Shown piece after piece: positions 1-53,966 of a DNA stretch of 64,000 nt. The notes below the pieces were generated by a model that worked only from the letters and a program-made list of their open reading frames with translations, searched no databases and was not told the origin of the DNA. How positions within the stretch are numbered: position 1 is the first letter of the stretch; each line of letters opens with the position of its first letter. The translations under genes were made by a program, and so were the position numbers. The DNA comes from Escherichia coli (GTDB taxonomy: Bacteria; Pseudomonadota; Gammaproteobacteria; Enterobacterales; Enterobacteriaceae): assembly GCF_030013595.1 (NCBI RefSeq), contig NZ_CP122769.1. One strand, 5' to 3'.

Positions 1-1206
1 CGTAATCCACAGGAAGTATCTGAACACTTTATTAAACTCGTTCATGCTCGAATTGCTGAAGTGTCTGGCTGGAAGTATATATTCGAAAGAATACCTGCTT
101 TCAAAGACGCTTGTGCAAAAGCCCCGAGCCAGGTTCCTTGCCCGTTTACTGGCGCAGGGAAATCGAAGTTTCGTTTCCGACAAAAAGACCTTTATACCGG
201 ATGTGCGATCCATAATGACTTTCCGGTAAATGAGTTTTGCGACGGAATTGATGTTCTGGCGAAATATTATGAATTAAGTAAAACGCAGACTTGCAAAAAG
301 ATTCTCTCAGATTTTTTCGGGATGGATCTGCATGCTCCGTTAACTGACGCCGACATTGAAAATGAACGACGCTATAAATCAGCAGTTCGTGCCACAGAAA
401 CTCTTGACCGAGAGGAAGTGGCAAAGCGAATGCGAAAACTTGATGTGATGTATCACTATACCGGTGAAATCAAGCCTAATACTCCTGTTGCTTTGTACCT
501 CCGTAATCGTGGGATCTCCCGCTTACTGAGTCACTTACCAAAGGATTTAGGCTTTAATAACCGGATCTACTATTGGGATAAAGATAAGCAGAAATCGATT
601 ATCTATCCGGGAATGATTGCGATCTATCGTGACACCCGAGGTCGGCCTCTGACTATTCATAGAACATACGTAGACAAAAATGGTGATAAGGCACCTGTAG
701 AAAATCCAAAGCTGATGATGAAGCCTCCTGCCGATATGACAGGTGGCTCAATTCAGTTGTTTGACCCTCACTATGATTCAGGTAGTTCGACCTGGACACT
801 GGGAGTGGCTGAAGGGATCGAGAACGCGCTTTCTGTTGTAGAAGCGACTTCAACACCATGCTGGGCAGCCAGCTCCGCATGGTGCCTTGAAAACGTTACT
901 GTTCCTGATTTTTTACTGCCTCCGCCGGATGTAAAATCTATAAACTTTTATATCTGGGCGGATAAGGATATTGCTAACTCACAAGGCACTCGTGCCGGTA
1001 TTGAAGCTGCTCAGCGACTTCAAAGCCGCATGGTTGAGTTTTTGGCTAAACGATATCCCGCATCAAAGCTGACAATTGAAGTCTTCGAACCAGCACAAGA
1101 TATTCCTGATGGGAAAAAGGGTATCGACTGGAACGATGTTCTCCAGTTAACAGGGCAGGATGGATTCCCGATTCACTGGGCTCCTGAATGTCTTAATCAG
1201 CTGTAA
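1..1206 (+). CDS. DNA primase-like protein (degenerate P4-type zinc-ribbon + Toprim), probably 5'-partial
   Basis: Reading frame is open from base 1; the ORF-track start at 61 is GTG with no SD. Motif CPFTGAGKSKFRF resembles the primase zinc-ribbon with Cys replaced; YIWADKDIANSQG is Toprim-like. Confidence 0.45.
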   Translation, partial: RNPQEVSEHFIKLVHARIAEVSGWKYIFERIPAFKDACAKAPSQVPCPFTGAGKSKFRFRQKDLYTGCAIHNDFPVNEFCDGIDVLAKYYELSKTQTCKKILSDFFGMDLHAPLTDADIENERRYKSAVRATETLDREEVAKRMRKLDVMYHYTGEIKPNTPVALYLRNRGISRLLSHLPKDLGFNNRIYYWDKDKQKSIIYPGMIAIYRDTRGRPLTIHRTYVDKNGDKAPVENPKLMMKPPADMTGGSIQLFDPHYDSGSSTWTLGVAEGIENALSVVEATSTPCWAASSAWCLENVTVPDFLLPPPDVKSINFYIWADKDIANSQGTRAGIEAAQRLQSRMVEFLAKRYPASKLTIEVFEPAQDIPDGKKGIDWNDVLQLTGQDGFPIHWAPECLNQL

Positions 1207-1215
1207 CAACGATAA

Positions 1216-1245
1216 CTCCCCCGCTTTTTGCGGGGGGGGTTATCT
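1216..1245 (+). terminator. Rho-independent terminator-like hairpin after primase-like gene
   Basis: ctcccccgc-ttttt-gcgggggg stem-loop followed by T-containing tract. Confidence 0.5.
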
Positions 1246-1476
1246 TATCAATATTATATTTTAAAATTGTATTGATAAGATAACCGCTTTCCTTCGTGAT
1301 AATTACCTGCCTTTAAGGTCTTTTCACGGCTGAGATGCTTGCTCAGTTAAATAAATGTGCGGTACTACTGGCTATGGTCGGTTGTATGACATGGTTATTC
1401 CATAAACTATTAAAACCCATAACGGGAGTATTACCGTTATGGTGATGCTCGTCGTTTTACATCGGAGAGCATTTTA

Positions 1477-1998
1477 ATGAATTTTCAAATTAACGAAGTT
1501 TTTAATAAATTTGCTGCTGTTATAAAATCGCGCATCGTCAATGAACCATCGTCATGCTATTTGCTGCATGATAATGAGATAGATATAACGATTTTGAAAC
1601 ATAGCATATTAGAAAATGACAGAAACCTGTTGTACGTAGTTCGTCCTTCAGGAACGTGTTTGTTGCGTTGTGACAAATATTTCTATCCGAAATATTATCT
1701 TCGTTGCCGTGGAGATTATAAGTCATTCATATATGTCCATCTTGATCTACATAGTGGTGAAGCTAAAGAAATCACATGGGAGCAAGCAGACGATATGCTG
1801 TCTAGTCCAGGAAAACCCCCATTAAAAGGGAATCTTGGACGATTTGAGTATATAAAAGTTGTGGTTGAGGACCTTCGTATTCGAGGTTACGCTGATTATC
1901 TTCCTGCGTATAATCTTGATGACCTTCGCCGTTTTGCCTTACAGGACGACCGCCCATCCCTTGTCAGATACATTGACAATGTCATGGCAACGGTCTGA
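1477..1998 (+). CDS. hypothetical protein
   Basis: 173-codon ORF, no recognisable motif. Confidence 0.5.
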   Translation: MNFQINEVFNKFAAVIKSRIVNEPSSCYLLHDNEIDITILKHSILENDRNLLYVVRPSGTCLLRCDKYFYPKYYLRCRGDYKSFIYVHLDLHSGEAKEITWEQADDMLSSPGKPPLKGNLGRFEYIKVVVEDLRIRGYADYLPAYNLDDLRRFALQDDRPSLVRYIDNVMATV

Positions 1999-2076
1999 TT
2001 GATTGCTAATTGATTTACATATTTTCCCTGATGGCCAACCTGCATCAGGGAGGCCTCAATAACGAATGGAGGCTGT

Positions 2077-2955
2077 ATGAAGTTAGCTACGGACCTGGTA
2101 AAAGCTATTTTGATTAGAAATGGCGTTGAACCAGTAAATATAAGCGAATCATCTAAGTTATCTTTGAAACAACCACTGACAGAACTTAAATTCAGTTTAT
2201 ATTTGCGAACTGAGCATTTATCTCACTTCCTACCCGGTTATGTTTATTCTATAAAAGAATGTCCACTGTCATATGACATCGGGATCGAAATTCAGAAAAT
2301 CTTCGAAAGTTTACATTTGTTAAACGAAGAATTTGAATCCCTCGGTTTTGTTTCTGTATGGATAGAAATGCATCAAAGCATTTTTGAACAAAGTCGGTTT
2401 AAGAAAAGTAACTTTACTTTTCGGGAGGAAGAGGTCGAGCTTGCTAAAGGGCTTGTTTGTTCTCACAATTCACAAATAAGTAATGCGGCTTATTTCTGGC
2501 TTCAGCACTTTGAGGAGTTTATGATTTATGTTCGTAATAAGCTTATCGACCTCTTTCGAGAGGCCTATGACCTGATCCTTGGAATGCAGCAAGTATTTTT
2601 CATTCGGGAAAAGGAAGAGCTGTTGAAAACTATAAGTTATGGCGATGAGCTGTATGAGGTGAAATTCATGGCGGCTGAGCTTTACTCTATCGAACAGAAC
2701 TTAAAGTGTTCTGAATCGATAAGTACAAAATCTCAAGCTTCGGCATATATTAACCGCATCCGTGAGTTTGTGCGTTCGGGGTGGAGGCAGGGCTATATAG
2801 TCTGCCATCATAAGCGAAGTAATCAAATTTCATCATTGTCATTACCGATGTACTTGAAAGATACGTCAGGCCGAAGTGCTCGAAAGCGAGTAAAACGTCT
2901 TATATCTTCTACAGTTTGTGGTAGAAATAAAGATTTAGGTCTTACAGATTTTTAA
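2077..2955 (+). CDS. hypothetical protein, paralogue family member 1
   Basis: 292-aa ORF; N-terminal pattern DLVKAILIRNGV shared with ORFs at 3026, 4030, 7147, 8257; preceded by hairpin ccctgatg/catcaggg at 2027-2051. Confidence 0.55.
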   Translation: MKLATDLVKAILIRNGVEPVNISESSKLSLKQPLTELKFSLYLRTEHLSHFLPGYVYSIKECPLSYDIGIEIQKIFESLHLLNEEFESLGFVSVWIEMHQSIFEQSRFKKSNFTFREEEVELAKGLVCSHNSQISNAAYFWLQHFEEFMIYVRNKLIDLFREAYDLILGMQQVFFIREKEELLKTISYGDELYEVKFMAAELYSIEQNLKCSESISTKSQASAYINRIREFVRSGWRQGYIVCHHKRSNQISSLSLPMYLKDTSGRSARKRVKRLISSTVCGRNKDLGLTDF

Positions 2956-2973
2956 TTAAATTATACCCATGTG

Positions 2974-3009
2974 GGGATCACACCCCATATGGGAGTGATC
3001 CCTTTTTTT
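2974..3009 (+). terminator. GC-rich hairpin plus T7 run (terminator-like)
   Basis: gggatcac ... gtgatccc inverted repeat followed by ttttttt. Confidence 0.55.
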
Positions 3010-3025
3010 ATTGAGAGAGGATCAC

Positions 3026-3961
3026 ATGAAAATTATCGAAAAAATCATTAATGCCTTTTTGGTTGTTCAACATAAAAAAATACAGGTTAAAAACATTACA
3101 TTTTTAGACAATGGGCAGGGCATGTTCTCTGGTATGTCTTTTGATGCTGATGTTTCACTGGAGTTTATGTATGAATCAGCAAAAGCATATAGTTCTTGTT
3201 TCTTTGATATTCCCTTTCCAGGTTTTGAAGATGCAAATCTGGAGGAAATTACGAAATTTCAATTAGATGCTTTGAAGCAAAGAAAGAATCATTCTTTCTT
3301 TGTTAACCATTTGAGGTTTCCTATAGTTTTAAGGGAAGGGTGCAAAATCGAAAGAGGAGAAGTCTATTCAATTTCGAATTGCACTTATAATAAAGAAAGA
3401 TTGCAGTATCTTTTTTCTCAGGATATTTACGGTAAGTTGTATAATTCCTTAGAGAAAGAATTAAGCTCGTTTTTCTCATTTATCAATGTTGAGGTGCACG
3501 AGTTGTTAAAAGATGCTGTATGCTTTGCATTAAAAATCCTGAATAAGATATCTTTGGATACACCTGAAAGACTTATTAAAGCTTTTAATTATCGTGACTG
3601 GTATTGTAGTTACGATGTTGAGCTTTTTAGGAAAGGCTTACCTGGTCATATTCTGGAAGAGCTCATTGCTCCAGATATCTTACTTTCAGACCTTAACGGT
3701 TGTAGAAAAATACTTAGAAATGCAAAACGATTTCTAAATGGACATACACAAACCAATTGTGTTTATATTAAATATGAATGGTGGTTGGGGCCTGTTGATA
3801 CCTCACACTCAGCTAAGTTGATGTCTGACAAAGAAATTAATAACCGAAGTGACTTGAAGAATTTTTCAAAGGTCTTTTTCAAAGAGTGTTTAAGTTCTGG
3901 TAAGTCGGAATATGAAAACCATCTTAGTGAAAAAGAACATGCGCTTCGCTATAATTATTAA
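3026..3961 (+). CDS. hypothetical protein, paralogue family member 2
   Basis: ATG at 3026 with RBS agagagg upstream (ORF-track TTG start at 3011 less likely); N-terminus KIINAFLVVQ fits family pattern. Confidence 0.55.
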   Translation: MKIIEKIINAFLVVQHKKIQVKNITFLDNGQGMFSGMSFDADVSLEFMYESAKAYSSCFFDIPFPGFEDANLEEITKFQLDALKQRKNHSFFVNHLRFPIVLREGCKIERGEVYSISNCTYNKERLQYLFSQDIYGKLYNSLEKELSSFFSFINVEVHELLKDAVCFALKILNKISLDTPERLIKAFNYRDWYCSYDVELFRKGLPGHILEELIAPDILLSDLNGCRKILRNAKRFLNGHTQTNCVYIKYEWWLGPVDTSHSAKLMSDKEINNRSDLKNFSKVFFKECLSSGKSEYENHLSEKEHALRYNY

Positions 3962-3974
3962 TTAAAATTATTTT

Positions 3975-4003
3975 CTCCCATAGGGATTTCTCCCTATGGG
4001 AGA
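3975..4003 (+). repeat. 13-bp-arm perfect inverted repeat (hairpin) between paralogues
   Basis: tctcccataggga-ttt-tccctatgggaga. Confidence 0.6.
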
Positions 4004-4029
4004 AATCCCTCTATTAAGAGGGTATTGAA

Positions 4030-4701
4030 ATGAATGCTATACAAAAGTTAGTTGAATCTATTCTTGTTAAAATGGGTTTTGTTGGCGCTGTAGTGGAAAA
4101 TATATATTTGGATTCAAAACCATTTCGGCATATTCGATTTGTGGCTGATATTCCAGTAATATCTTTTCTACCTCATTTGGTGAAATATCTTAAGGGTGCA
4201 GACCATCTTTACAGTGGTAACGATGATTTGCATCCTCTTTTCATTTATTTTTCCGAAGCGGCTACATTAAAAGCAGGTCCTGTAAATCTCGCGAACTTTC
4301 GTTTTGAAGTTTCTATAGCTTCAACTCATTTACGACTGGTCTCAGAGCAGCCTGATTTGCTTTTCAAAGGATTTAACCGGGATAATCTAGAATACGTTTA
4401 TTACCGCTCAGATTTGGCCTCTAGGGATCTTATACTAGGCCTTGTTGAACACGGTTCTCCTTTCATAAAACATCTACATGGACTTATACAAAAGCGAATT
4501 TTAAACGAGTTCTCTCTGATTTTTTCTGTTCTTGAAAAGATTTTAGAAAGCGCGAAGCCACAAATTCTTGCTTGCTTCCATAGTGTTGATTATGAAATGA
4601 ACGTAAAAATAATAGCCGAAGCTATACCTGAAACTGTATCTAATCAGATAGTCACATCTGATTATATAGTTAATGTTAGCGCCAATGATATAAGACTGTA
4701 A
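4030..4701 (+). CDS. hypothetical protein, paralogue family member 3; 3' end probably truncated by IS insertion
   Basis: N-terminus KLVESILVKMGF fits family; stop codon 4699-4701 abuts the IS21-family terminal inverted repeat. Confidence 0.5.
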   Translation: MNAIQKLVESILVKMGFVGAVVENIYLDSKPFRHIRFVADIPVISFLPHLVKYLKGADHLYSGNDDLHPLFIYFSEAATLKAGPVNLANFRFEVSIASTHLRLVSEQPDLLFKGFNRDNLEYVYYRSDLASRDLILGLVEHGSPFIKHLHGLIQKRILNEFSLIFSVLEKILESAKPQILACFHSVDYEMNVKIIAEAIPETVSNQIVTSDYIVNVSANDIRL

Positions 4702-4774
4702 TTCGCCATTTGGGTTGTCCGCTCCACCCAACATGTTGTTTCCTTGAGGTTCTCACACCAGAAAGGACATCGAC

Positions 4775-6744
<1,970 letters not shown>

Positions 6745-6775
6745 TCAAATAGCGGACATTAAAAATGGCGAAAAC

Positions 6776-7080
6776 CGGCCATAAATCTTGGCGTTGACAT
6801 TAATTCTATATCAGATGCGGACAAGTTTATAAATCATGTTCGTCGCTATTTAGCAGGCAGGGTAATGAAGAGGCGGATATACGCTGAATTAGATGTTTGT
6901 GAAGAAACATCAAGTATTTCACTAGTGAACTTAGGATGCTTTACGTCTCCTCTGCTCGTTACGGAATATCAAATGTTTAAGCCACACTCTTCAGGGTTAT
7001 ATCGAAAAGCTATAAACAACTCCTTAAAACAGTTCAAACCAGAAATGCATGTACCTTCTGAAGAACTCTTTTATAATTAA
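6776..7080 (+). pseudogene. possible 3' remnant of the IS-disrupted paralogue
   Basis: Frame is open from the IS right end (6776) through ORF 6865-7080; followed by the same type of hairpin as other family members. Confidence 0.3.
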
Positions 7081-7090
7081 TCTAACCCAT

Positions 7091-7128
7091 CCGGGAACCT
7101 GCTTCCCGGTGGGAAGCACTTCCTTTTT
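7091..7128 (+). repeat. GC-rich hairpin upstream of paralogue 4
   Basis: ccgggaa/ttcccgg and gcttccc/gggaagc arms, then ttttt; conserved with element at 8197-8235. Confidence 0.5.
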
Positions 7129-7146
7129 AGTCATGAGGTAGTGTAA

Positions 7147-8085
7147 ATGTTTAAAGAATCTGACCACGTGGAATTTGTTAGTGCCTTTCTTTATCAAAAT
7201 TTAGGCCTTAATGTTTCCGCTGACGATATAACCGTTCAATTATCTGATACTTCGTTCGACAAAGTAACCTTTGATTACGATGTAGATATCGATAATTTAA
7301 ATTGTATGTTGGATCTCTACATATCTGAGCTAATAAAGCACAACGCATCTTACTCCGATTCTATTCTTTTGAAACAAAAAATAATTTATTTTCTTGGAGT
7401 ATTTAAGAATTTCGGATTTTTTACGTTTGATATTCGCGGATATAGTAATACTTTAAGCCCAGTTAAAGTTATTGATATTGTTTCAATGATTATTAATGAC
7501 TGTGAAGAGTTATCTAAAGCTAATTCTTCTACTGATGCTATAAGAAATCTTTATCTCGATAAAATGAAGGTGGATGGGAAAGTGTTAGTTGCGAAATTTG
7601 CACTTAAACAGTTTTTTCATTCCGACTTTGGTGACTTTATCTCATTTGTCGAGAAAAGAATTACAGATTGTCTTAATGAAACTTTAAGGATTATCAAAGC
7701 TGTTGAACATGGCTTTGTACGTGTAGGGCAGCATAAGATTAATCGCCGTATTAATGATGACTTAAAGTTATGCATTGATTTCAATACTGATGATTATCCG
7801 GCAAATATGCCAGATATATATATTAAGTTTAACGATACATTTGATGGGAACGGGGCGTTATATTGTGACAATGATGCCCTCATATCCCTCTATACCGATG
7901 TTGCTTCAATTATCAATGTGCCGGTGATGATGGAAGTAAGATTGATCAATAAAAGAGGGCGTGTTGTCTGTGATTCTTCGCATTCAACTTACGTATCTCT
8001 CGAAAGTAATGACCGATACAGAGTAACTGATCGCACATTACTAATAACTGAAGCTTTTGACGATTTTCGTAACGCGTCTCAATGA
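7147..8085 (+). CDS. hypothetical protein, paralogue family member 4
   Basis: 312 aa; clear similarity to ORF 8257 (VDGKVLVAKFALKQFF vs VDGQVMIARFALQQFW; ITEAFDDFRN vs VSEVFDNLRN); RBS context gaggtagtgtaaATG. Confidence 0.6.
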   Translation: MFKESDHVEFVSAFLYQNLGLNVSADDITVQLSDTSFDKVTFDYDVDIDNLNCMLDLYISELIKHNASYSDSILLKQKIIYFLGVFKNFGFFTFDIRGYSNTLSPVKVIDIVSMIINDCEELSKANSSTDAIRNLYLDKMKVDGKVLVAKFALKQFFHSDFGDFISFVEKRITDCLNETLRIIKAVEHGFVRVGQHKINRRINDDLKLCIDFNTDDYPANMPDIYIKFNDTFDGNGALYCDNDALISLYTDVASIINVPVMMEVRLINKRGRVVCDSSHSTYVSLESNDRYRVTDRTLLITEAFDDFRNASQ

Positions 8086-8196
8086 TCCTTTTGCTTCAGT
8101 CCAAAAAAGTAACTTTGGTTGGCTGAAGACACTTGTCTATGACAATGTAAAATCTGTCGCTGGCATCTTCTTTTAGCTTAACCAAATTTTTATCTA

Positions 8197-8235
8197 ACCC
8201 AGTGGGGAAGTCGCTTCCCTTCTGGGGCACTTCCT
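8197..8235 (+). repeat. GC-rich hairpin upstream of paralogue 5
   Basis: gggaag-tcg-cttccc; similar to 7083-7125 (shared taaccca, gcttccc, cacttcc). Confidence 0.5.
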
Positions 8236-8256
8236 CTCAAATTCGAGGTAGTGTAT

Positions 8257-9213
8257 ATGACACATTCATCTGATGATAAAAACTATGTCCGAGCAGTTCT
8301 GAGTTATCTTGGCATAGATTTTGATGAGGCGGATATAGTATTAAGTGTTTGCCATTGTCAAAGTGACGAGCTTTCTTTTACCTGTAATATCAAAGCTATT
8401 GAACTCAAGAATGCTGTTGATTTATATGTCGATAGTATCTCTGAGAATGAAATAGAAGCTTTAAACAGAGAATCTTTAAAATCGCGACTCTGTTACTTTC
8501 TTGAGGTGTTTGACGCAGTCTCTGGTCAGTACCTTGAAATTTCAGGAAAACACTTTGCAACTAGTCGTTTTGAATATGATGATGTTTGTAGTGAAGTTCT
8601 TAGCATGTCTAATGATGTTTCTCAGTCGAAAGGTTATGACCGGGATGAATATAACAGACTGATGCAGGTTGATGGTCAGGTTATGATTGCCCGTTTTGCT
8701 TTGCAACAGTTCTGGGATACTCATTTTATTGGACTAATAACATTTGTATCTGAGTCTATAACATCGAGCCTCTATAAAGCTTATGAAACTTTTAGTGATA
8801 TTAGTTTGGCTTGCTATAAACTGAGTGAATATTCTTATTCACGCTCTATCAACAGTGAATTGACCCTTAATATTTCACTTAAAGAAAATGACTTCTGTGA
8901 GGACCTATCTGATTGCTATATGGAAGATGAGGCTTTACCTTCTGGTAGGGTAATTTCTCGACGCAACAATGACTCCATAATAAGTATTTATGAGAGCTAT
9001 GCTGCGGCTTCTTATATTCCGATGATTGCATCTTTGGAAGTCGTTGATGAATACGGCGAAGTGGTTACTGACCTCTGCCATACCGTTTATGTTTCAGAGT
9101 TAACCGGTGGGCGGATTAAAATCCACGACCGTAATGACTTAGTATCTGAAGTTTTCGATAACCTAAGAAATTTAAATCTTGCAGTTGGAGATTCAGTTTC
9201 ACAAGCTGCTTGA
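8257..9213 (+). CDS. hypothetical protein, paralogue family member 5
   Basis: ATG at 8257 in context gaggtagtgtatATG identical in layout to paralogue 4. Confidence 0.6.
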   Translation: MTHSSDDKNYVRAVLSYLGIDFDEADIVLSVCHCQSDELSFTCNIKAIELKNAVDLYVDSISENEIEALNRESLKSRLCYFLEVFDAVSGQYLEISGKHFATSRFEYDDVCSEVLSMSNDVSQSKGYDRDEYNRLMQVDGQVMIARFALQQFWDTHFIGLITFVSESITSSLYKAYETFSDISLACYKLSEYSYSRSINSELTLNISLKENDFCEDLSDCYMEDEALPSGRVISRRNNDSIISIYESYAAASYIPMIASLEVVDEYGEVVTDLCHTVYVSELTGGRIKIHDRNDLVSEVFDNLRNLNLAVGDSVSQAA

Positions 9214-9252
9214 TTCTTTCCCTGATTTTGATTTTTTCTCACATACTCTTAT

Positions 9253-9276
9253 GGCACGGTTTCCGTGCCTTTTTTT
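9253..9276 (+). terminator. Rho-independent terminator
   Basis: ggcacgg-ttt-ccgtgcc followed by T7. Confidence 0.65.
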
Positions 9277-9475
9277 GCCTCGCTTACAAGCGTCTACTCC
9301 TCTTCTACCTATCCCACCTTACATCACCACTTAAAATCTATCTTTCTAATTCCATTATCCTTTTCGTAGCCTCTAATGCTCTGGTATGAACATACTCTTT
9401 AAACTCAAAAAAGTGCTATTAACGAAAAAAAATCCCTAAAGAGATTTGTATACTGTTCTCAACCAAGGAGAGCTC

Positions 9476-9751
9476 ATGAATGAACTAAAATCCAAAAACG
9501 AGAACAGTACCAAAAGCAACTTTCCCCCGGTTGATAATCAGTTTTGCTTTTACCATGTTGATTTCAGCATAGAACGACTACTTTCTACGGCCGAGGATCT
9601 CCAGCTTGAGTACATCTTCCAGAAACCTGGAAGTGAAGTAAGAAAGGATTTGGTTGAGCGATTTGAACGTGGAGAGCGCTTTGTTACAGCTTCACACTGT
9701 GACAATTTCTGTGAAATCCTTGGTTGTCAAGGCCATCAGGAAAATGCATAA
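9476..9751 (+). CDS. hypothetical protein
   Basis: ORF with internal ATG at 9476 (track start 9446); no recognisable motif. Confidence 0.4.
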   Translation: MNELKSKNENSTKSNFPPVDNQFCFYHVDFSIERLLSTAEDLQLEYIFQKPGSEVRKDLVERFERGERFVTASHCDNFCEILGCQGHQENA

Positions 9752-9795
9752 ACCCATAAACCTACATTTCCACTTTTAAGGATGTTCACTAAAGA

Positions 9796-10386
9796 ATGAT
9801 TGGAGAAAGTATTTTTGACTGGGTAATTTACGGAATATCCATTTTGATATTTGCCTCAGCACTAATTGAAGGAAAGACAACTCGCTACCCAGCACTTTTT
9901 TTCTATGGGAGTTTAATTTTAATGTTAATCCTGATAGTTGCTGGAGGCCTTAACTGGTGGTTCTACAGGTCAAAATATGGCGCAGTAATCGTTATCTTCA
10001 CAGTGGTTTCTTTACTGATGACTCGATTCCGCCTGGTCATATATAAATTAAGATTAAGAAAGTTAGTTTCAGAGATCAGATTTCGTATAAAAACGGGTTT
10101 TCGTATAATTCTTGTTTTGTCGGATAATGAGGATGAGCGTAATGTTCTGCTGTCTATGCTTAGCAACGTATTGCCAGAGCAAACGCTTATTCACACGCGT
10201 GATGCTCTCGGACCTCATTCAGGGCCTATCCTAAAAGCTCTTGAGCTACATCATCAACAGGGAACAGGTTACATACTCGTCTGTGAACAACAAATCTCAG
10301 CGCGTACGTGGTTGAGTATCGTAGAAAATGGGAAACCTGATACATCTATAGCTGTTAATTTTCATTCGATCCCAGAAATGGAGTGA
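9796..10386 (+). CDS. hypothetical membrane protein (about 3 N-terminal TM helices)
   Basis: Hydrophobic segments ISILIFASALI, LILMLILIVAGGL, AVIVIFTVVSLL. Confidence 0.5.
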   Translation: MIGESIFDWVIYGISILIFASALIEGKTTRYPALFFYGSLILMLILIVAGGLNWWFYRSKYGAVIVIFTVVSLLMTRFRLVIYKLRLRKLVSEIRFRIKTGFRIILVLSDNEDERNVLLSMLSNVLPEQTLIHTRDALGPHSGPILKALELHHQQGTGYILVCEQQISARTWLSIVENGKPDTSIAVNFHSIPEME

Positions 10387-10393
10387 TTTTTCA

Positions 10394-10651
10394 ATGAGTA
10401 GAACCGTTTCACAAAGTGTCACAGAAGATTGTCTTTTTGATACCCGCACACAAGTCAGATTACAACTAAGTCGAAGCGTTCATAAAACGCTGGCATCTGC
10501 TAAAGAAATTTTACAGGGAAGGGGGGTTGATTCGGTCTCTATTGAAGATCTTGTGCGAGCCTGTCTTGAAGAGAACCAGCCAATTGATCTCGCCTCACTT
10601 TACCTTGAAAATCTCTTAAAACAGAAAGGTACCAGCATTTGCGATTTTTAG
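10394..10651 (+). CDS. hypothetical protein
   Basis: 85-aa ORF, 8-nt spacing from upstream gene. Confidence 0.4.
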   Translation: MSRTVSQSVTEDCLFDTRTQVRLQLSRSVHKTLASAKEILQGRGVDSVSIEDLVRACLEENQPIDLASLYLENLLKQKGTSICDF

Positions 10652-10724
10652 TGTTTTCAAACCTATTAGATAAAATGCCGGTTGTGTTTATATAACATCA
10701 ATAATTTCATGCAACAGGTAAAAC

Positions 10725-11261
10725 ATGAGTACTCAAAAGCAACTTTCCAGAACAACCGGCACTGAACGTATGTTTAAGGAAGAGCTGGCGTTATCCTTAA
10801 TTTGTTGGGTTTTCACCAGTCCATTTACCAACTGGACCGATAAAGTCTTCAGTGGTATTGAAGTTCCGTCTGAAGGACCGTCAACATTACTGGGTGAGGC
10901 TGAAAAATTCTTTCGTTTTGTCGTTAATGAAGAAGGCTACGACGCAGGAAGGGCTGCTCTTGGTCTTGACCTATGTTGTTTTTCACTTCCGTCGTGTTTG
11001 TTCCCGGACGCTGCCCTGTCTGAGGAAGAGGTTATGAGTAAGTTAACCGGAGAAGTTATCCATGGGATTCTTCTTTCCTTACCTGAATTTATTGATATGC
11101 CAGAAGTGCTCGCTTACCAGGTCAGGGATGAAATTCTTGCTTTTAACACTCGCTGTGGAGACGGGATCTTTCATGGTTGGAACACGGCTTCAGAATTGTG
11201 GAAGTTTGAAATCTTTCCCCGCACCACCATCATGATGCAGCATACTTCGGCAATACATTAA
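10725..11261 (+). CDS. hypothetical protein
   Basis: 178-aa ORF. Confidence 0.45.
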   Translation: MSTQKQLSRTTGTERMFKEELALSLICWVFTSPFTNWTDKVFSGIEVPSEGPSTLLGEAEKFFRFVVNEEGYDAGRAALGLDLCCFSLPSCLFPDAALSEEEVMSKLTGEVIHGILLSLPEFIDMPEVLAYQVRDEILAFNTRCGDGIFHGWNTASELWKFEIFPRTTIMMQHTSAIH

Positions 11262-11277
11262 AATTAGGCGGGGCAGA

Positions 11278-11724
11278 ATGCATAAAAAACTTTTTCTTCT
11301 CGAATGGAAACCCTGTCAGAGCCGCGTATGGGCCGGTTGGATGGCCCTGTGGTTGACTATCAGTTTTCTGATGTTATCTGCCTTGCTTATGACAGATCAT
11401 CTCCTGAACAAAGTCATCCTGCCGCCAACATGGTTGTTGATCTGGTTTTCGCCAATGCTGGGGTTTTTGATAAAAGTTCGCGTCGTCGAAACTCAACATT
11501 TCCTGGAGCATGACCTCTGTGTTGCAGGTTTCTCTTTTTACCGCTGGAAGAGGTTAGTTTCTCCCGGGCTTTGGTCAGTTGACTGTATAAATGGTCGTTT
11601 TCGCCTCAATCGGATCACCCAGGTGGGTAAGACTATCCACTATCCATGGCGTCTCCATTATCATCCTTTGTTCATGAGCCCTATCGAACATAAATCGCAT
11701 GCTGTGAAAGCTGTTTCAAAATGA
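11278..11724 (+). CDS. hypothetical membrane protein
   Basis: Hydrophobic N-terminal half (WMALWLTISFLMLSALLM). Confidence 0.4.
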   Translation: MHKKLFLLEWKPCQSRVWAGWMALWLTISFLMLSALLMTDHLLNKVILPPTWLLIWFSPMLGFLIKVRVVETQHFLEHDLCVAGFSFYRWKRLVSPGLWSVDCINGRFRLNRITQVGKTIHYPWRLHYHPLFMSPIEHKSHAVKAVSK

Positions 11725-11796
11725 CTTCTTTAGAGGTTTACATGACATTTATGTTCTGCAAGGTCAGCCAGGGCAGCAAAATTGATTTGAAATAAC

Positions 11797-12777
11797 ATGA
11801 GCCTGGAGAAACGTATGAGTTATGACGATTTGCCCTATTTTCGTGACCAGATTCTGGAACGTATCGACTCGCTTAAGTGTTTTCTTTCGAACACCCCCCC
11901 GCTGATGGCAAACCTGATGACTGTCTCCACCGTATCTCGAACAGAAGAGCGACTGAAGCAGGTTAAACCCATCAGGGTTAGTGTTAAAGACGATGCTTCG
12001 GTTGAGGAAATTATTCAGGCACTTACTGACATCTGTGTGGATGACATAGAGTCATTAAGTCATGATTCCACCAAAGTGACCACTAAATACCCGGGTCTTA
12101 TCATTGTCCCAGAAAGAGCAGATCTTCTCGAAAGCTTGATCACATCTATAAATGAAGCAAAAAATGATTTTGCTGCGGCAATGAGGCGTATCGATAATAA
12201 AAAGAATGTCCGTTTTGATAAAGTGCACAAGAAGCTCCCGGGCCTTGTCGCTATGCACTCAACAAGAAATGTCCTTTTCATCAAGTCCCAGCTTAAAAAA
12301 GTTACTTTTTCATGGCGGCTAAACCGAAACCAGGAAGTTAAAACAGCAGAGCAACTTGTGAGTTTGTTGGAGCGCAGGAGAGCCTCAGAAGTAAAAAATG
12401 TAGCAACTACCAATTTGAATGTCGTGTCTAATATCGATAAGGCTTTACACCGTCTTGAATTTCACCCACTGAAGCAGGGCGAATCTTATCGCCTTTGTCG
12501 AACTAACTCTTTCCCTGTTCCGATTGCTCACATTTTTGCATTTAGGCCTGAAGGGCAGGAACGAAACGGGAATAAATATGCTGAGACTGATTATTCAGTA
12601 GTAAAAGCATCCTTGCCCATTTTCGCAGCAGGCAACATACCTCAATTAAAAACGCTCTCTGACTGGGCTCCTGAAAACAGCCAGGGCCCGTCCAACCAAC
12701 GGAAGCTGAGCCTGAAATATACAGAACTCGTGCCGGGGGCTGAGCTGGGCATTTTCATTGTCAGCCCCGAAAATTAA
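11797..12777 (+). CDS. Tus-like replication terminus-binding protein homologue
   Basis: Segment FDKVHKKLPGLVAMHSTRNVLFIK..FSWRLNRN recalls the E. coli Tus region [29 protein letters not shown] (from memory); similar length. Confidence 0.5.
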   Translation: MSLEKRMSYDDLPYFRDQILERIDSLKCFLSNTPPLMANLMTVSTVSRTEERLKQVKPIRVSVKDDASVEEIIQALTDICVDDIESLSHDSTKVTTKYPGLIIVPERADLLESLITSINEAKNDFAAAMRRIDNKKNVRFDKVHKKLPGLVAMHSTRNVLFIKSQLKKVTFSWRLNRNQEVKTAEQLVSLLERRRASEVKNVATTNLNVVSNIDKALHRLEFHPLKQGESYRLCRTNSFPVPIAHIFAFRPEGQERNGNKYAETDYSVVKASLPIFAAGNIPQLKTLSDWAPENSQGPSNQRKLSLKYTELVPGAELGIFIVSPEN

Positions 12778-47221: not shown

Positions 47222-49331
47222 GAATTCAGTCTGGCTCTCTCAAGGCACTGATTTGCTTGCAGAGGGACTTTACCGTGTTTTGGATTTTGACAGAAAGGTC
47301 GATTTGTTAATTTTGTTTAAAATAAAATCAGAAAGAACGGGTAAGCCAATCCCTTTCTCATTTTCAATGTTTAAATATTATATTGAATCAAATAGCATAA
47401 CTTGTAAAGATTATATATATCCTTCATATATGTTAGTAGATGAGAAAGAATTAACAGATAAAGACAGAGGAAGGCGAGATGAAAATTACAATATCATTAA
47501 AGATCTTGTAGATGACAGAATGTTTCTGTTCGACTATGCATTACATAAAAAGTCGCACCTTTTAATGGATTACTCAAGAAATAAAAAAATATCACAATAT
47601 ACTATCAGAACGCTTCTGGCGTTGTATTGGCGACATGGGCAGGATATTTATGCATTGCTACCCGCATTCTCGAACTGTGGCGCCGCTGGGAAAAGTAGAA
47701 TCAAACATGAAATTAAACTTGGGAATTCCAAAAAAAACAGAGCATTACCTAATGAACGATCACGTGTTTTCATTCTTAATGAAAGAGATATAAATAATAT
47801 TAGAAAATCTCTCATTACGTATCATTATAAAGTTAACGGAGATACGATAAAGAAAACATTAGAGAGACATATTGATTTGTATTTTAGGGATGAAATTAAA
47901 ACAGCAAACCTAGAAAATAGAGCTCCATATGTTCCTTCTTTAAAACAATTTTCATACTGGAATAAAAAACTCTTCACTAAAGATTTCTCGATAAATAAGA
48001 AGAACACGAAAAAAGAAATAGACCTCAAAATGCGGGCGCTTTTAGGTAGTGTGGCTAATACAACTGTTTTGCCGGGTGATGTTTTCGAAATAGACTCAAC
48101 TGTCGCTGATGTACATCTTATTTCGAGTTTAAACAGACGAAAAGTCATTGGGCGTCCTACTATTTATACAGTGGTGGATCGTGCAACAAGAATGATTGTT
48201 GGCCTTCATGTTTCTTTATACCATGCTTCATGGCGAGCCGCCCGACAAGCGTTAGCAAATTGCTTTATGCCAAAAAAAGAATATTGTAGATTATTTGGAA
48301 TCTCTATTACTGATGATGATTGGCCTTGTTCTCACATTCCATTAACATTGATGTGTGACAACGGGGAGATGATTGGTCTTAAACCTCAGGAAGAGATGAC
48401 CCCCCTGACAAAACTTGAGTTTGCGCCAGTCGGTAGAGGCGACAGAAAAAGCATTGTTGAACGCTGTTTCGGCATTCTGAATGATGAGGTTATTCATAGG
48501 CTTATTGGAACAACACGAAGGGGAAAGATTGTTAAAGGAGAGCCAACACCGCAATCCAGGGCTTGTTTAACGATTCAGGAGGTCACGTCTTTACTGATTC
48601 GGGAGATACTTGCACATAATCAGAGAACGTATGAGGAACTGGCTTATATCAATCCCTTACTGATTGAAAATGATCTCGTAATATCACCAAAAAATAGTTG
48701 GATGATAAGCTTAAAGCACGGGAGATTCAGCGCAAGAGCCGTTGGGGCCGACGAAGTGATCGCACGATTGTTAATCCCTGTGAACGCTAACATTACCGCC
48801 GGTGGGATTCAGTACAATAATCTTTTTTATGAATGTGATCCTGAAATTGCATCAGGTGTCAGAGTATTTGGAAGAACCACTTGTGAAGCAAGAATAGATG
48901 ACAATTGCGTAGATTATATATATGTAAGATTTGACAAAAATAGCATTTTCAAAAAACATTACCTACTTAAGAAAAGAGATGTATTTAAAGGGAAAGCTCA
49001 TCTTGATACAGATGTAATGGCTGATTGGGTAGATACTCAAAAAGAAATTAATTTATTTACTCTGGATTCGCTCAGCAATATCAATAATAAAGATGAATTT
49101 AACAGGAAAGGTAACGAAAGATTAAATGAAATATACGAATCTCGCCGGGTACATGGTAAAGATATTAAAAAGAACAGAAAAAATGAACTTGATTCATTAG
49201 GGCGAACTCATGTTGCTAATGGAAGATCTGAACCCCTACTTCCTTCATCCAGTAATGTTCTGCTTTTGCCTGGCCGGGAGGAGAAACAAAGATGGTTAAA
49301 AGGTAAGAAGAAGACTGAGGACGCAGAATAA
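47208..49331 (+). CDS. tnsB: Tn7-like DDE transposase TnsB
   Basis: 707 aa; DDE core region (EIDSTVADV..VVDRATRMIVG..MCDNGEM). Confidence 0.85.
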   Translation: MDIIRNSVWLSQGTDLLAEGLYRVLDFDRKVDLLILFKIKSERTGKPIPFSFSMFKYYIESNSITCKDYIYPSYMLVDEKELTDKDRGRRDENYNIIKDLVDDRMFLFDYALHKKSHLLMDYSRNKKISQYTIRTLLALYWRHGQDIYALLPAFSNCGAAGKSRIKHEIKLGNSKKNRALPNERSRVFILNERDINNIRKSLITYHYKVNGDTIKKTLERHIDLYFRDEIKTANLENRAPYVPSLKQFSYWNKKLFTKDFSINKKNTKKEIDLKMRALLGSVANTTVLPGDVFEIDSTVADVHLISSLNRRKVIGRPTIYTVVDRATRMIVGLHVSLYHASWRAARQALANCFMPKKEYCRLFGISITDDDWPCSHIPLTLMCDNGEMIGLKPQEEMTPLTKLEFAPVGRGDRKSIVERCFGILNDEVIHRLIGTTRRGKIVKGEPTPQSRACLTIQEVTSLLIREILAHNQRTYEELAYINPLLIENDLVISPKNSWMISLKHGRFSARAVGADEVIARLLIPVNANITAGGIQYNNLFYECDPEIASGVRVFGRTTCEARIDDNCVDYIYVRFDKNSIFKKHYLLKKRDVFKGKAHLDTDVMADWVDTQKEINLFTLDSLSNINNKDEFNRKGNERLNEIYESRRVHGKDIKKNRKNELDSLGRTHVANGRSEPLLPSSSNVLLLPGREEKQRWLKGKKKTEDAE

Positions 49332-50779
49332 TGAATCTTATACGGCGCGTTTCAGCGATATATAAAGAACAGGAGTTACCTGAGTATCGTGGCAATCCCT
49401 TAATTGAAGCACTTCCTGAAGCGCTTACGGAAGATGAAGTACTTCTGGAAATGAGTTATTTCCCCGAAATTGACGAAAAAATCCGCTGGACTGCCCCGGC
49501 GAATGTTAGAGAGCAGTATGTCGAACGTATAAAGAAATTCCGTTGCCCTCAAACCAATCTTATCCAGGCTTATAAGATGATCTTACGGGCACTTAGGGAA
49601 AGCTATGCAGCTCGTAATCCTTTAAAAAGCGGAACAATTCAATATCTTCATTACTATGGAAATGAGCGTCCTGATATTGAGCCAGAAAGTGGATATTTTA
49701 AATCCCAGGCTGAAACTATTACGATAGTTGGAATGAGTGGTTCTGGAAAAACTACCATGATTGAGCAAGTCATGGAACATTTCCCTCAGATTATAGAACA
49801 CAGCAGCTATAAAGGAGTTTTTCCCGGCTTCAGTAAGCAAATTGTATGGGTAAAGATTAATTGTCCATACAATTCAAGTGTGAGAGACCTTTGTGAAGAG
49901 ATTTTACAAAAATTAGATGATGCAATTGGTATTGAACGAACTACACCTGAGATTAGAAATGGTGCTCTGGCTCGCCAGATTGCACAAAGAATTAAATCAT
50001 CATTTTTGGGTATCCTTGTTATTGATGAAATGCAGAGGCTTAAATTTTCAAGAACCGGGGGTGAGAGTAAGTTGATTGATTTTTTACATGAAATTGTAGA
50101 TTCCATGGGGGTATCTATGGTTTTTTGTGGAAATCATCCTTTTGACGAGACGCTGACAAAGAAAATGAGAATTGCCAGGCGGGCAGAGTCTGGTGGTTAC
50201 ATGAAAATTAAGAATGTTAGATACGATTCACAAGACTGGCAATCGTTTATTCATTATTTATGGCCATTACAATGGACAAATGTTGAAACTCCATTAAATG
50301 ATGAGTTAAACGAAAAATTATTCATTTTATCTAAAGGCAATATTGGATTGGCTCAGATGATTTATCGGGGGGCACAATTAAAGGTTATCGGTAGCGGCAA
50401 TGAAATCATCACTGGCGCAGTCTTGTCGGCCTCTGTACCGGTACTCGTGAGTCATACGGAGGAATATAAGGATACTCCACTCCCGGGGGCCGCGACTGAA
50501 GATGAGGAAGCTAAATGGCTCTCTGCATCTAATGAGGGTGATGCTTCGGCTAAAATCATGGCAGAGAAGTCCCTAAAGTCTTTGATCCCTGGGGATATAG
50601 ACAGGCCACAGCACAAGGAATTCGTAGGAAAAATAGACGAGGTTTTGCGCAATTTCGACGAGAAAATACTGTCTCTTGACCACGATCTTGTTATCAACAG
50701 AACAGCTGAAAAGAAAAATACCTACGATGCTCTTCAGCGTTGCGGGCTTATAAATATAGATCCACTTAATAAATTGTAA
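49331..50779 (+). CDS. tnsC: Tn7-like AAA+ ATPase TnsC
   Basis: Walker A GMSGSGKTT, Walker B VIDEMQ. Confidence 0.85.
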   Translation: MNLIRRVSAIYKEQELPEYRGNPLIEALPEALTEDEVLLEMSYFPEIDEKIRWTAPANVREQYVERIKKFRCPQTNLIQAYKMILRALRESYAARNPLKSGTIQYLHYYGNERPDIEPESGYFKSQAETITIVGMSGSGKTTMIEQVMEHFPQIIEHSSYKGVFPGFSKQIVWVKINCPYNSSVRDLCEEILQKLDDAIGIERTTPEIRNGALARQIAQRIKSSFLGILVIDEMQRLKFSRTGGESKLIDFLHEIVDSMGVSMVFCGNHPFDETLTKKMRIARRAESGGYMKIKNVRYDSQDWQSFIHYLWPLQWTNVETPLNDELNEKLFILSKGNIGLAQMIYRGAQLKVIGSGNEIITGAVLSASVPVLVSHTEEYKDTPLPGAATEDEEAKWLSASNEGDASAKIMAEKSLKSLIPGDIDRPQHKEFVGKIDEVLRNFDEKILSLDHDLVINRTAEKKNTYDALQRCGLINIDPLNKL

Positions 50780-50819
50780 TGAGGTAACAGTTCGTAACGG
50801 TCAAAGAGAGGTGTGGGAA

Positions 50820-52376: not shown

Positions 52377-52387
52377 GAGGGAGTTAT

Positions 52388-53314: not shown

Positions 53315-53586
53315 TTTCACTTCATTTATAAAATACTAAGAAAGCTAGTTAGATAAGGTTTTATATTTTGACTGGGGCAGGAATAAATTATCACTCATAG
53401 AGTTTCCCTGGGGGTTACCACCTGTGTATGATGCCGGTTAGCAACAACGTCTAAAAGACCTGCGATCACGTGGGTCCCTCTCCAGCAAAGGGGCAAGGGG
53501 TGCTATATAACGGTGTACTGCTTACCCAATACGGCCTTGTATTTGAAAGATGCCGCATCTTGGCAGGATTCGTATTACAGCCTATA

Positions 53587-53629
53587 GTCTGTTAATGAGC
53601 ATTACAGCCTATATGCTGTAAATCCCTGC
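53587..53629 (+). promoter_or_regulatory. operator-like inverted repeats upstream of hipB paralogue
   Basis: ACAGC-N6-TCTGT at 53587-53602 and ACAGC-N6-GCTGT at 53614-53629, same type as hipBA operators. Confidence 0.45.
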
Positions 53630-53666
53630 GTTATGCTTGTTAACTCGTCGATACGGAAGGTCACTT

Positions 53667-53966
53667 ATGAACACTCAATACGCTTTGAAGACTTTGAATC
53701 AGTTACGTCCTGTTTTAATCGGCTTTCGCAAAGCCAATGGACTGACGCAAAAAGATGTTTCTGAACGTTTGGGTATAACACAGCAAACTTATGCCCGACT
53801 AGAGGCCAACCCTGCAAGTGCGGGTTTTGAGCGTTTGTTTAGGGTGTTCAGCGTCCTTGGAGTGGAGATCGTACTTTCATCCAGGGAACCATTGTCAGAT
53901 GCAAAGCCCGAATACGGAGCTATGCACAATTATTCTTCACTTCCAGCCAGGCGGGAGAAATGGTGA
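53667..53966 (+). CDS. HipB-like HTH regulator (orphan paralogue, no adjacent hipA)
   Basis: MNTQYALKTLNQLRPVLIGFRKANGLTQKDVSERLGITQQTYARLE closely parallels hipB at 40003. Confidence 0.75.
   Translation: MNTQYALKTLNQLRPVLIGFRKANGLTQKDVSERLGITQQTYARLEANPASAGFERLFRVFSVLGVEIVLSSREPLSDAKPEYGAMHNYSSLPARREKW

What the first reader, a model, noticed from the sequence alone, without database searches (positions are those of the whole stretch)
2027..9276. Tandem array of five diverged paralogous ~300-aa genes, each with its own upstream GC-rich hairpin
ORFs at 2077, 3026, 4030, 7147 and 8257 share an N-terminal pattern (x-V-x-x-A/S-I/F-L ... G-V/L/F) and internal hydrophobic periodicity. The last two align clearly and share an identical start context gaggtagtgtaWATG. 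Each is preceded by a distinct GC-rich inverted repeat 20-60 nt upstream. No catalytic motif is recognisable. Diversified tandem families of this kind are typical of immunity, anti-defence or exclusion functions, and the block follows a primase-like gene as in plasmid leading regions.
Basis: partly seen in the sequence, partly recalled or inferred. Interest (0 to 1): 0.72.

Follow-up and report, generated by a model that had tools for sequence, protein, structure and literature searches.

The report
IncHI plasmid five-gene paralog array
Five neighbouring genes on an IncHI2 resistance plasmid are ancient copies of one gene for a protein of unknown function with no solved structural relative, each preceded by the same two-hairpin RNA element that buries its ribosome-binding site; the array lies far from the plasmid's transfer origin.

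Summary
Window 2077-9213 carries five co-oriented ~300-aa genes (g1-g5) in the conserved backbone of IncHI plasmids; the window is 100% identical to S. enterica IncHI2 plasmid NZ_CP117034.1.

All five are paralogs:
- g4 and g5 share 27% identity (E 3e-37).
- Profile comparisons give g2~g3 98%, g1~g2/g3 97%, g1~g4/g5 86%, all near full length and colinear. 27 controls gave P>=0.024.
- AlphaFold models of g1 and g4 have the same element order and cross-hit each other's families in AFDB.

Each "hairpin" is half of a two-hairpin module. The second hairpin buries the Shine-Dalgarno sequence. The module recurs before DUF3150, VWA, a 72-aa gene, g0 and g1-g5, and almost nowhere else on the plasmid. 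Covariation is strong: 91% of cells paired, 20 of 23 pairs compensatory.

The leading-region reading fails, because mobI and the MobH relaxase lie about 100 kb away. Protein function remains unknown.

The parts
1..1206 (+). 3' 1206 nt of the toprim/DUF7146 gene (it starts 27 nt before the window).
   Evidence: Annotated as a toprim / DUF7146 domain protein. Pfam DUF7146 + Toprim_3 on orthologs.
1216..1238 (+). Terminator-like hairpin after toprim (CTCCCCCGC-TTTTT-GCGGGGGGG). It is followed by a 23-nt inverted repeat at 1238-1285.
   Evidence: Conserved in IncHI1A/B.
1417..1476 (+). Two-hairpin module before g0
   Evidence: MFE -27.2, z -5.7. CM hit at E 0.022.
1477..1998 (+). g0, a 173-aa hypothetical gene. 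It is not a detectable paralog of g1-g5.
   Evidence: hhalign P>=0.047.
2025..2076 (+). Two-hairpin module before g1
   Evidence: Orthologous module in L013 is a CM hit.
2077..2955 (+). g1, 292 aa (family A)
   Evidence: Model pLDDT 85.1.
2966..3025 (+). Two-hairpin module before g2. Segments A GGGGATCAC, B GTGATCCC, C GGATCAC.
   Evidence: MFE -36.3, z -8.8. Seed of CM R1.
3026..3961 (+). g2, 311 aa (family B)
3972..4029 (+). Two-hairpin module before g3
   Evidence: MFE -34.7, z -9.8. CM hit at E 6e-4.
4030..4673 (+). g3 5' part (family C), interrupted
4674..6799 (+). IS21-family insertion sequence (istA 4775-5947, istB 5944-6744), 2126 bp, with TTAA target duplication
   Evidence: Absent from other IncHI2 plasmids.
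6804..7080 (+). g3 3' part
   Evidence: Matches residues 215-306 of the intact g3.
7086..7146 (+). Two-hairpin module before g4
   Evidence: MFE -27.7, z -4.5. CM hit at E 0.0066.
7147..8085 (+). g4, 312 aa (family D)
   Evidence: Model pLDDT 86.5.
8198..8256 (+). Two-hairpin module before g5
   Evidence: MFE -32.4, z -6.8. CM hit at E 0.14.
8257..9213 (+). g5, 318 aa (family D), very acidic (pI 4.3, net charge -30)
9253..9269 (+). Canonical intrinsic terminator (GGCACGG-TTT-CCGTGCC + T7). This is the likely end of the g0-g5 transcription unit.
   Evidence: Conserved in IncHI1A/B and in L012.

Best explanation
g1-g5 are five old tandem duplicates of one gene. They encode cytoplasmic alpha/beta proteins of about 300 aa with a fold that has no solved relative. 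The fold has an N-terminal alpha/beta domain, a helix of about 45 residues and a C-terminal beta-rich domain.

They belong to a backbone transcription unit of IncHI-type plasmids, g0-g5, bounded by terminator-like hairpins at 1216-1238 and 9253-9269. This unit lies downstream of an AAA-DUF3150-VWA-toprim cluster and upstream of a Tus-like gene.

Shown here:
- Common ancestry and a common fold.
- Purifying selection and strict 1:1 orthology in IncHI1A, IncHI1B and IncHI2.
- Copy number of 2-5 in more distant relatives.
- An intercistronic RNA module repeated before every cistron. Hairpin 1 is GC-rich. Hairpin 2 follows immediately and pairs an anti-SD segment (B) with the Shine-Dalgarno and start region (C).
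- A segment (A) inside hairpin 1 that mimics C and is complementary to B.

Inferred:
- The module keeps each ribosome-binding site closed by default.
- It opens the site when hairpin 1 is disturbed and A captures B, for example by a ribosome terminating 5-10 nt upstream. Translation would then be relayed from cistron to cistron and the products made in fixed proportion.
- The paralogs act through binding rather than catalysis, probably together as a hetero-oligomer or a set of specialised adaptors. Their role would be in plasmid DNA-processing or maintenance linked to the upstream genes, not as a leading-region anti-defence island.
For: Identity of the locus.

Paralogy: with controls.

Fold:
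- Models have the same element order (H-E-E-H-H-E-H-H-long H-E-E-H...E-E-H).
- The g1 model hits the g4/g5-family AFDB entry A0A381KN38 (E 6e-7, TM 0.61). The g4 model hits the same entry at E 3e-25. The g1 model also hits three other Buttiauxella array members.

No known family.

Selection: dN/dS 0.14-0.24.

Copy-number variation.

RNA module:
- Its MFE and z-score rank at the top of 53 gene starts.
- 47 modules were found in 7 plasmids.
- A covariance model built from the g2 class alone finds the other classes. Over about 259 kb covering most of the plasmid it hits almost only this operon.
- 91% of cells are paired, 20 of 23 pairs have compensatory changes and 0 of 500 shuffles reach this. 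Slid controls give 42-59%.
- G-U pairs are frequent, which points to the + strand.

A:B complementarity: cognate pairs average -10.1 kcal/mol against -6.1 for non-cognate pairs (Mann-Whitney p 6e-17).

Relay: blocking the first 5-7 nt of hairpin 1 lowers mean SD pairing from 0.81 to 0.54-0.62.
Against: - No experiment or transcript data were available.
- Protein function rests on context and on the absence of catalytic signatures.
- The relay model fits only part of the modules. In IncHI2 the stop-to-hairpin distance is 5-10 nt for five modules but 20-210 nt for four. In about half of the modules blocking hairpin 1 does not free the SD at equilibrium.
- A crude measure of SD pairing does not separate these genes from others on the plasmid.
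- The covariation alignment was fitted to the model, and the modules are related by descent, so the shuffle statistics are inflated.
- Hetero-oligomer formation was not tested.
Confidence: 0.45

Rival explanations
1. It is a diversified anti-defence, immunity or exclusion array in which each paralog neutralises a different host or competitor factor by binding.
For: - Paralogs are diverged and copy number is 2-5.
- g1-g4 are among the fastest-evolving proteins in the neighbourhood: 48-53% identity between IncHI2 and IncHI1A against 59-81% for most neighbours.
- g5 is consistently very acidic, like DNA mimics (pI 4.3-4.5).
Against: - The array is about 100 kb from mobI and the relaxase, so it is not in the leading region.
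- Order and 1:1 orthology are strictly conserved, and dN/dS is 0.14-0.24, like the neighbours.
- There are no PADLOC or NCBIfam matches.
- No partner toxin gene is present.
Confidence: 0.25
2. The proteins are chaperone-like adaptors for proteins exported through the conjugative type IV secretion system, for example the neighbouring toprim primase.
For: - The array lies just downstream of the Tra2 transfer genes and the toprim gene.
Against: - The scores are in the twilight zone and cover a subdomain of about 60-70 residues.
- The proteins are more than twice the size of such chaperones.
- No secretion signal or partner was identified.
Confidence: 0.1
3. The hairpins are ordinary features with no switch. 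They would be intrinsic terminators or attenuators, mRNA 3'-end stabilisers, or repeats carried along by the duplications.
For: - Hairpin 1 is GC-rich and lies just after each stop codon.
- Some alternative A:B helices are followed by T6-7 (g2, VWA).
- The g4 and g5 modules are nearly identical in sequence, as expected from duplication.
Against: - Terminator-like sites are not enriched: 13 found against 10.1 expected.
- Most hairpins lack a T-run.
- The module also precedes non-paralogous genes.
- The second hairpin always ends 0-7 nt before the start codon and covaries with the SD region.
- A:B complementarity is specific to cognate pairs.
Confidence: 0.15

Closest known systems
Translational coupling with an activator pairing, as in ColIb-P9/IncI-alpha repY-repZ. 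The resemblance is recalled from established knowledge and was not tested here.
   Same: The downstream SD is locked in a hairpin. A sequence in an upstream hairpin is complementary to the anti-SD side, so that disturbing the structure can open the ribosome-binding site. Translation of the upstream ORF is the presumed trigger.
   Different: - Here the module is repeated before at least nine consecutive cistrons.
- The upstream stop lies before hairpin 1, not inside the sequestering hairpin.
- The A:B pairing would be a helix that replaces hairpin 1 rather than a loop pseudoknot.
- No antisense RNA is evident.
Plasmid leading-region anti-defence islands (Samuel and Burstein 2024, PMC11541004)
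   Same: A run of co-oriented, uncharacterised plasmid genes with no enzymatic signature.
   Different: - The array is about 100 kb from mobI and the relaxase.
- No ssb, psiB, ardA or orphan methyltransferase lies in the block.
- The genes are about 300 aa, strictly conserved in order, and under purifying selection.
Type III secretion class I chaperones and polymorphic-toxin immunity proteins (TriX, 8s2m)
   Different: - Only 55-72 residues align at 5-14% identity.
- The whole 300-aa architecture has no counterpart.
- No cognate effector or toxin gene is adjacent.
IS21 family (for the insertion in g3)
   Same: istA and istB genes, TGT/ACA termini, a short target duplication and a length of about 2.1 kb.
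   Different: Nothing unusual. It is a secondary event in this one plasmid lineage.

Membership tests
Plasmid leading-region anti-defence island | Lies in the first-transferred region next to oriT and the relaxase | tested here: not met
   The array is at 50-57 kb. mobI is at 158.4 kb and the MobH relaxase at 159.6-162.8 kb of a 232-kb plasmid.
Plasmid leading-region anti-defence island | Contains recognisable anti-defence or establishment genes (ardA, psiB, ssb, klcA, orphan methyltransferases) | tested here: not met
   No NCBIfam match for g0-g5. Annotation of the block is 'hypothetical' throughout. Methyltransferases lie elsewhere, at 197-229 kb.
Plasmid leading-region anti-defence island | Single-strand (Frpo-like) promoters | not tested
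   No tool or model for ssDNA promoters was applied.
Any curated protein family (Pfam, NCBIfam, PHROGs, PADLOC) | Significant profile match | tested here: not met
   none; only weak, mutually inconsistent PHROG hits (E>=0.004). Precomputed Pfam fields were '-' for all homologs and array genes.
DNA-mimic anti-restriction proteins (ArdA/Ocr type) | Strongly acidic surface | tested here: inconclusive
   Only g5 is very acidic (pI 4.3-4.5, net charge -25 to -33). g4 is moderately acidic and g1-g3 are neutral.
DNA-mimic anti-restriction proteins (ArdA/Ocr type) | Sequence or fold similarity to ArdA or Ocr | tested here: not met
Type III secretion class I chaperone fold | Alpha-beta-beta-beta-alpha-beta-beta-alpha domain of about 130 aa with clear structural similarity | tested here: inconclusive
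Coupling/attenuation RNA (repY-repZ-like) | SD of the downstream cistron sequestered in a conserved hairpin | tested here: met
   Hairpin 2 ends 0-7 nt before the start codon in the modules listed. Its 12 pairs (helices 2 and 3) all show compensatory changes.
Coupling/attenuation RNA (repY-repZ-like) | An upstream element complementary to the anti-SD strand (alternative pairing) | tested here: met
   Cognate A:B duplex energy is -10.1 kcal/mol against -6.1 for non-cognate pairs, p 6e-17. Three-way covariation was read by eye in the g2 class (GATCAC vs GATTAC) and the VWA class.
Coupling/attenuation RNA (repY-repZ-like) | The upstream ORF ends close enough for the terminating ribosome to disturb the structure | tested here: inconclusive
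   In IncHI2 the distance from stop codon to hairpin 1 is 5, 6, 8, 10 and 10 nt for five modules but 20, 26, 112 and 210 nt for four.
Coupling/attenuation RNA (repY-repZ-like) | Downstream translation depends on upstream translation | not testable with these tools
   Needs reporter fusions or ribosome profiling.
Intrinsic terminator | GC-rich stem followed directly by a U-run | tested here: not met
   This applies to the intergenic hairpins. The scan found 13 sites against 10.1 expected, and most hairpin 1 copies lack a T-run. The feature is met only at 1216-1238 and 9253-9269.
Rfam RNA families | Covariance-model match | tested here: not met
   There were three sub-threshold chance hits in window 1-12000. 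Only one (BTnc231, 22 bits against a gathering score of 80) overlaps a module.
IS21 family (insertion in g3) | istA + istB, terminal TGT/ACA, 4-8 bp target duplication | tested here: met

The most novel reading that the evidence does not exclude
The g0-g5 unit and the genes upstream of it are controlled by a previously undescribed, operon-wide iterated RNA switch. This is a three-segment A/B/C module that passes translation from one cistron to the next. The five paralogs assemble into a hetero-oligomeric machine with a new fold that is specific to IncHI-type conjugative plasmids, which are major carriers of mcr-1 and other resistance genes.
Probability: 0.2. Interest if true: 0.8.

Novelty: categorically new. 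Interest (0 to 1): 0.62.

Why it matters
IncHI1 and IncHI2 plasmids are among the main vehicles of multidrug resistance in Salmonella, E. coli, Enterobacter and Klebsiella. The source plasmid here carries mcr-1.1.

About 5 kb of their conserved backbone is spent on five paralogs that have stayed 'hypothetical'. They fall outside every sequence and structure family tested here. They are kept in order and under purifying selection between IncHI1 and IncHI2.

Knowing what they do could expose a plasmid-specific function worth targeting. The repeated two-hairpin module is a compact, testable case of how a long plasmid operon might set the translation of each cistron, and it supplies a covariance model for finding related operons.

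The result also corrects the tempting 'leading-region anti-defence' label.

Tried and rejected
- Pairwise BLASTP and phmmer alone linked only g4-g5 and g2-g3. Three-sequence profiles gave weak but colinear hits. Richer profiles from divergent arrays were needed.
- A profile search of 1.84 billion representatives with the g4/g5 alignment found only 41 proteins and did not reach g1-g3.
- A weak repeated match to a 2078-aa LPXTG adhesin (P0062) was not pursued.
- The PHROG hit phrog_10163 was not reproduced with other family members, so I treat it as chance.
- A scan of viral contigs found no relatives.
- Literature searches for the protein accessions, for IncHI with anti-defence or intercistronic terms, and for 'NgrC' gave nothing relevant.
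- The 'TTC39/IML2' annotation on NC_021819.1 sits on a truncated copy of g5 and is spurious.
- A fixed-window SD pairing probability did not discriminate the array genes from other genes.
- RNAalifold on MAFFT alignments of all modules predicted nothing, because the stems were out of register. A covariance model solved this.
- A naive sliding search for any two adjacent hairpins was swamped by hits in the GC-rich part of the window.
- RNA thermometer and CsrA-site readings were considered and set aside. The stems are long and stable, and the GGA motifs lie in stems rather than loops. This rests on reading the sequences and on general knowledge.

Full report
WHAT THE LOCUS IS

The first 10 kb of the window are 100% identical to Salmonella enterica IncHI2 plasmid NZ_CP117034.1 (positions 48055-58054). 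Apart from a 2.1-kb insertion, they are also identical to hundreds of IncHI2 plasmids from E. coli, Salmonella, Enterobacter and Klebsiella.

In the annotated records the block reads: AAA ATPase, DUF3150, VWA, a 72-aa gene, toprim/DUF7146, a 173-aa gene (g0), then five 'hypothetical proteins' of 292, 311, 306, 312 and 318 aa. Small genes follow, then a Tus-like terminus-binding protein, a tyrosine recombinase and Hha. The same order and sizes occur in IncHI1A and IncHI1B plasmids.

CHECK OF THE OBSERVATION

The ORFs are at the stated coordinates.

An IS21-family element occupies 4674-6799. It carries istA and istB, has TGT...ACA ends and has duplicated TTAA (4670-4673 and 6800-6803). Joining 4030-4673 to 6804-7080 restores the 306-aa gene seen intact elsewhere. 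A second copy of the same IS lies at 181-183 kb of the plasmid.

ARE THE FIVE GENES PARALOGS?

By pairwise search only two links are clear. g4 and g5 share 27% identity over 309 residues (E 3e-37). g2 and g3 match at E about 2e-7.

I then collected divergent arrays through relatives of g4/g5 and built one profile per family. Profile-profile comparison gave:
- g2~g3: 98% probability (E 1e-13).
- g1~g3: 96% (5e-9).
- g1~(g2+g3): 97% (1e-10).
- g1~(g4+g5): 86% (5e-6, 223 colinear columns).
- (g2+g3)~(g4+g5): 55% (1e-4, 244 colinear columns).

Twenty-seven controls against neighbouring gene families and reversed profiles never did better than P 0.024 and never exceeded 94 columns.

AlphaFold models of g4 (pLDDT 86.5, pTM 0.81) and g1 (pLDDT 85.1, pTM 0.76) have the same succession of elements: helix, two strands, two helices, strand, two helices, one helix of about 45 residues, a beta-hairpin, then a helix/beta C-terminal domain ending in a helix. 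The g1 alignment contained no g4 or g5 sequences.

Foldseek confirms the link. The g1 model hits A0A381KN38 of Buttiauxella at E 6e-7 and TM 0.61. That entry is a g4/g5-family member, hit by the g4 model at E 3e-25 with 31% identity. The g1 model also hits three further members of the same Buttiauxella array.

I conclude that all five genes descend from one gene and that g1 bridges the two halves of the family.

WHAT THE PROTEINS ARE NOT

- NCBIfam and PADLOC gave no match, and there was no reproducible PHROG match.
- The collections record no Pfam domain for any homolog.
- PDB sequence searches gave nothing.
- The family is very narrow. A profile search of 1.84 billion representatives found 41 proteins, and no relatives were found in viral contigs.
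- AFDB holds some ~300-aa 'uncharacterized' proteins from other Enterobacterales and Pasteurellaceae that match at 10-15% identity and TM about 0.6. I could not retrieve them.

EVOLUTION

Orthologs are 1:1 and in the same order in IncHI2, IncHI1A, IncHI1B and one metagenomic relative. Other relatives carry four or two copies.

Between IncHI2 and IncHI1A, g1-g4 are 48-53% identical. That is lower than most neighbours, which are 59-81% identical.

dN/dS between IncHI1A and IncHI1B is 0.14-0.24, within the range of the neighbours. These are therefore functional genes under purifying selection, not a fast-turnover arms-race array.

g5 orthologs are consistently very acidic (pI 4.3-4.5). The others are not.

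THE HAIRPINS

Every intergenic region of the array holds two adjacent hairpins, not one.

Hairpin 1 is GC-rich, of the type CCCnnnGGGG-loop-CCCCnnnGGG. Hairpin 2 follows after 0-5 nt, usually 0-2. It has a T-rich loop, and its 3' arm is the Shine-Dalgarno sequence and the bases up to the start codon.

Among 53 gene starts on the plasmid, these regions have the lowest folding energies and z-scores (-4.5 to -9.8, except g1 at -2.6). The same layout precedes DUF3150, VWA, the 72-aa gene and g0, but not the genes after g5.

A covariance model built only from the four g2-class modules finds the other classes in seven plasmids at E down to 1e-8. Across about 259 kb covering most of the source plasmid, it hits almost only this operon.

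On the resulting 30-sequence alignment:
- 91% of cells are paired.
- 20 of 23 pairs show compensatory changes.
- No shuffle out of 500 reaches the observed values.
- Sliding the partners drops pairing to 42-59%.
- G-U pairs are common, which points to the + strand RNA.

The alignment is fitted to the model and the modules are related by descent, so these numbers overstate independence. The signal is nevertheless large.

Rfam has no matching family.

A POSSIBLE SWITCH

The inner 5' arm and loop of hairpin 1 (segment A) resembles the SD region (segment C) and is complementary to the anti-SD arm (segment B). Examples of A followed by C:
- GGGGATCAC / GAGGATCAC
- GGGTACTTCA / AGGTACTCA
- GGGGAAGTCG / GAGGAAGTG

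Cognate A:B duplexes average -10.1 kcal/mol against -6.1 for non-cognate combinations (p 6e-17). In the g2 and VWA classes, A, B and C change together between plasmids.

Occluding the first 5-7 nt of hairpin 1, as a terminating ribosome might, lowers mean SD pairing from 0.81 to 0.54-0.62. The switch is marked in about half of the modules and absent in the rest.

In IncHI2 the upstream stop codon lies 5-10 nt before hairpin 1 in five modules but 20-210 nt away in four. A translation relay is therefore the best-fitting idea but is only partly supported. It recalls the repY-repZ coupling of IncI-alpha plasmids; that comparison comes from my own knowledge and was not tested.

The toprim gene is indeed upstream. 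However, mobI, the MobH relaxase and TraD are at 158-165 kb of the 232-kb plasmid, and the array is at 50-57 kb. The array is about as far from the transfer origin region as it can be. The stretch at 183-208 kb looks more like a leading region: it has many small co-oriented genes, a methyltransferase and a PAPS-reductase-family gene. The 'leading-region island' analogy fails, and the anti-defence function is untested.

VERDICT

The array is a conserved, uncharacterised paralog family with a fold not represented among solved structures. It is embedded in an operon whose cistrons are each preceded by a covarying two-hairpin, SD-occluding RNA module.

Function is unknown. My best guess (confidence about 0.45 overall, lower for the functional part) is a set of non-enzymatic binding proteins made in coupled proportion for a plasmid DNA-processing or maintenance role. 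An anti-defence or immunity role is the main rival at about 0.25.

Noticed in passing
window 4674-6799: An IS21-family element (istA/istB, 2126 bp, TTAA duplication) interrupts g3 in this plasmid lineage only. An identical copy lies at 181-183 kb of the same plasmid (L018 47119-49001, L017 1-88).
   Followed up: yes
L005 44341-44400, 45546-45605, 47630-47695; L005 41430-41500: The two-hairpin SD-occluding module is not specific to the paralog array. It also precedes DUF3150, VWA, the 72-aa gene and probably a further upstream gene, so it marks a stretch of at least 13 kb of co-oriented genes.
   Followed up: partly
window 1238-1285: A 23-nt inverted repeat (GGTTATCTTATCAATATTATATT / AAAATTGTATTGATAAGATAACC) lies directly after the toprim terminator. 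Its position is conserved in IncHI1A/B. It may be an operator or other protein-binding site at the head of the g0-g5 unit.
   Followed up: no
L002 2900-2955 (just upstream of the window start): The toprim gene has a different leader. It is a single hairpin of about 55 nt (-35 kcal/mol), conserved in all relatives and followed by an unstructured SD.
   Followed up: no
window 8086-8197: The g4-g5 spacer is 171 nt, against 66-78 nt for the other spacers. It holds an extra conserved structured segment and weak promoter-like matches (8057-8086, 8126-8153). g5 may have its own promoter.
   Followed up: no
L008 7986 and 7394; L013 5173: Automatic gene calls in the metagenomic relatives place some start codons inside the RNA module. 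The covariance-model hits (L008 7371-7429, L013 5150-5208) indicate the true starts lie further downstream.
   Followed up: partly
P0062: A 2078-aa LPXTG surface protein matches profile positions 196-293 of the g4/g5 family in nine repeats (E 3e-7 overall). This may be a distant similarity of the C-terminal beta domain to an adhesin repeat, or it may be chance.
   Followed up: no
L017 (plasmid 183-208 kb): A long run of small co-oriented hypothetical genes includes a DNA methyltransferase, a PAPS-reductase-family protein, an HNH endonuclease, and DUF3085 and DUF957 proteins. It looks more like an establishment or leading-type region than the array does.
   Followed up: no
window 16000-64000 (L015); L018: The rest of the window carries the tellurite resistance (ter) clusters, a HipA toxin-antitoxin pair, a Tn7-like transposition module and the sil/cus silver-copper efflux genes. 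Outside the window the plasmid carries mcr-1.1 and blaTEM-1.
   Followed up: no
AFDB A0A5Y2S904: A 708-aa Salmonella houtenae protein annotated DUF1738 (the ArdC N-terminal domain) matches the g4 model at E 5e-4. This hints that the fold may occur fused to an antirestriction-type domain.
   Followed up: no
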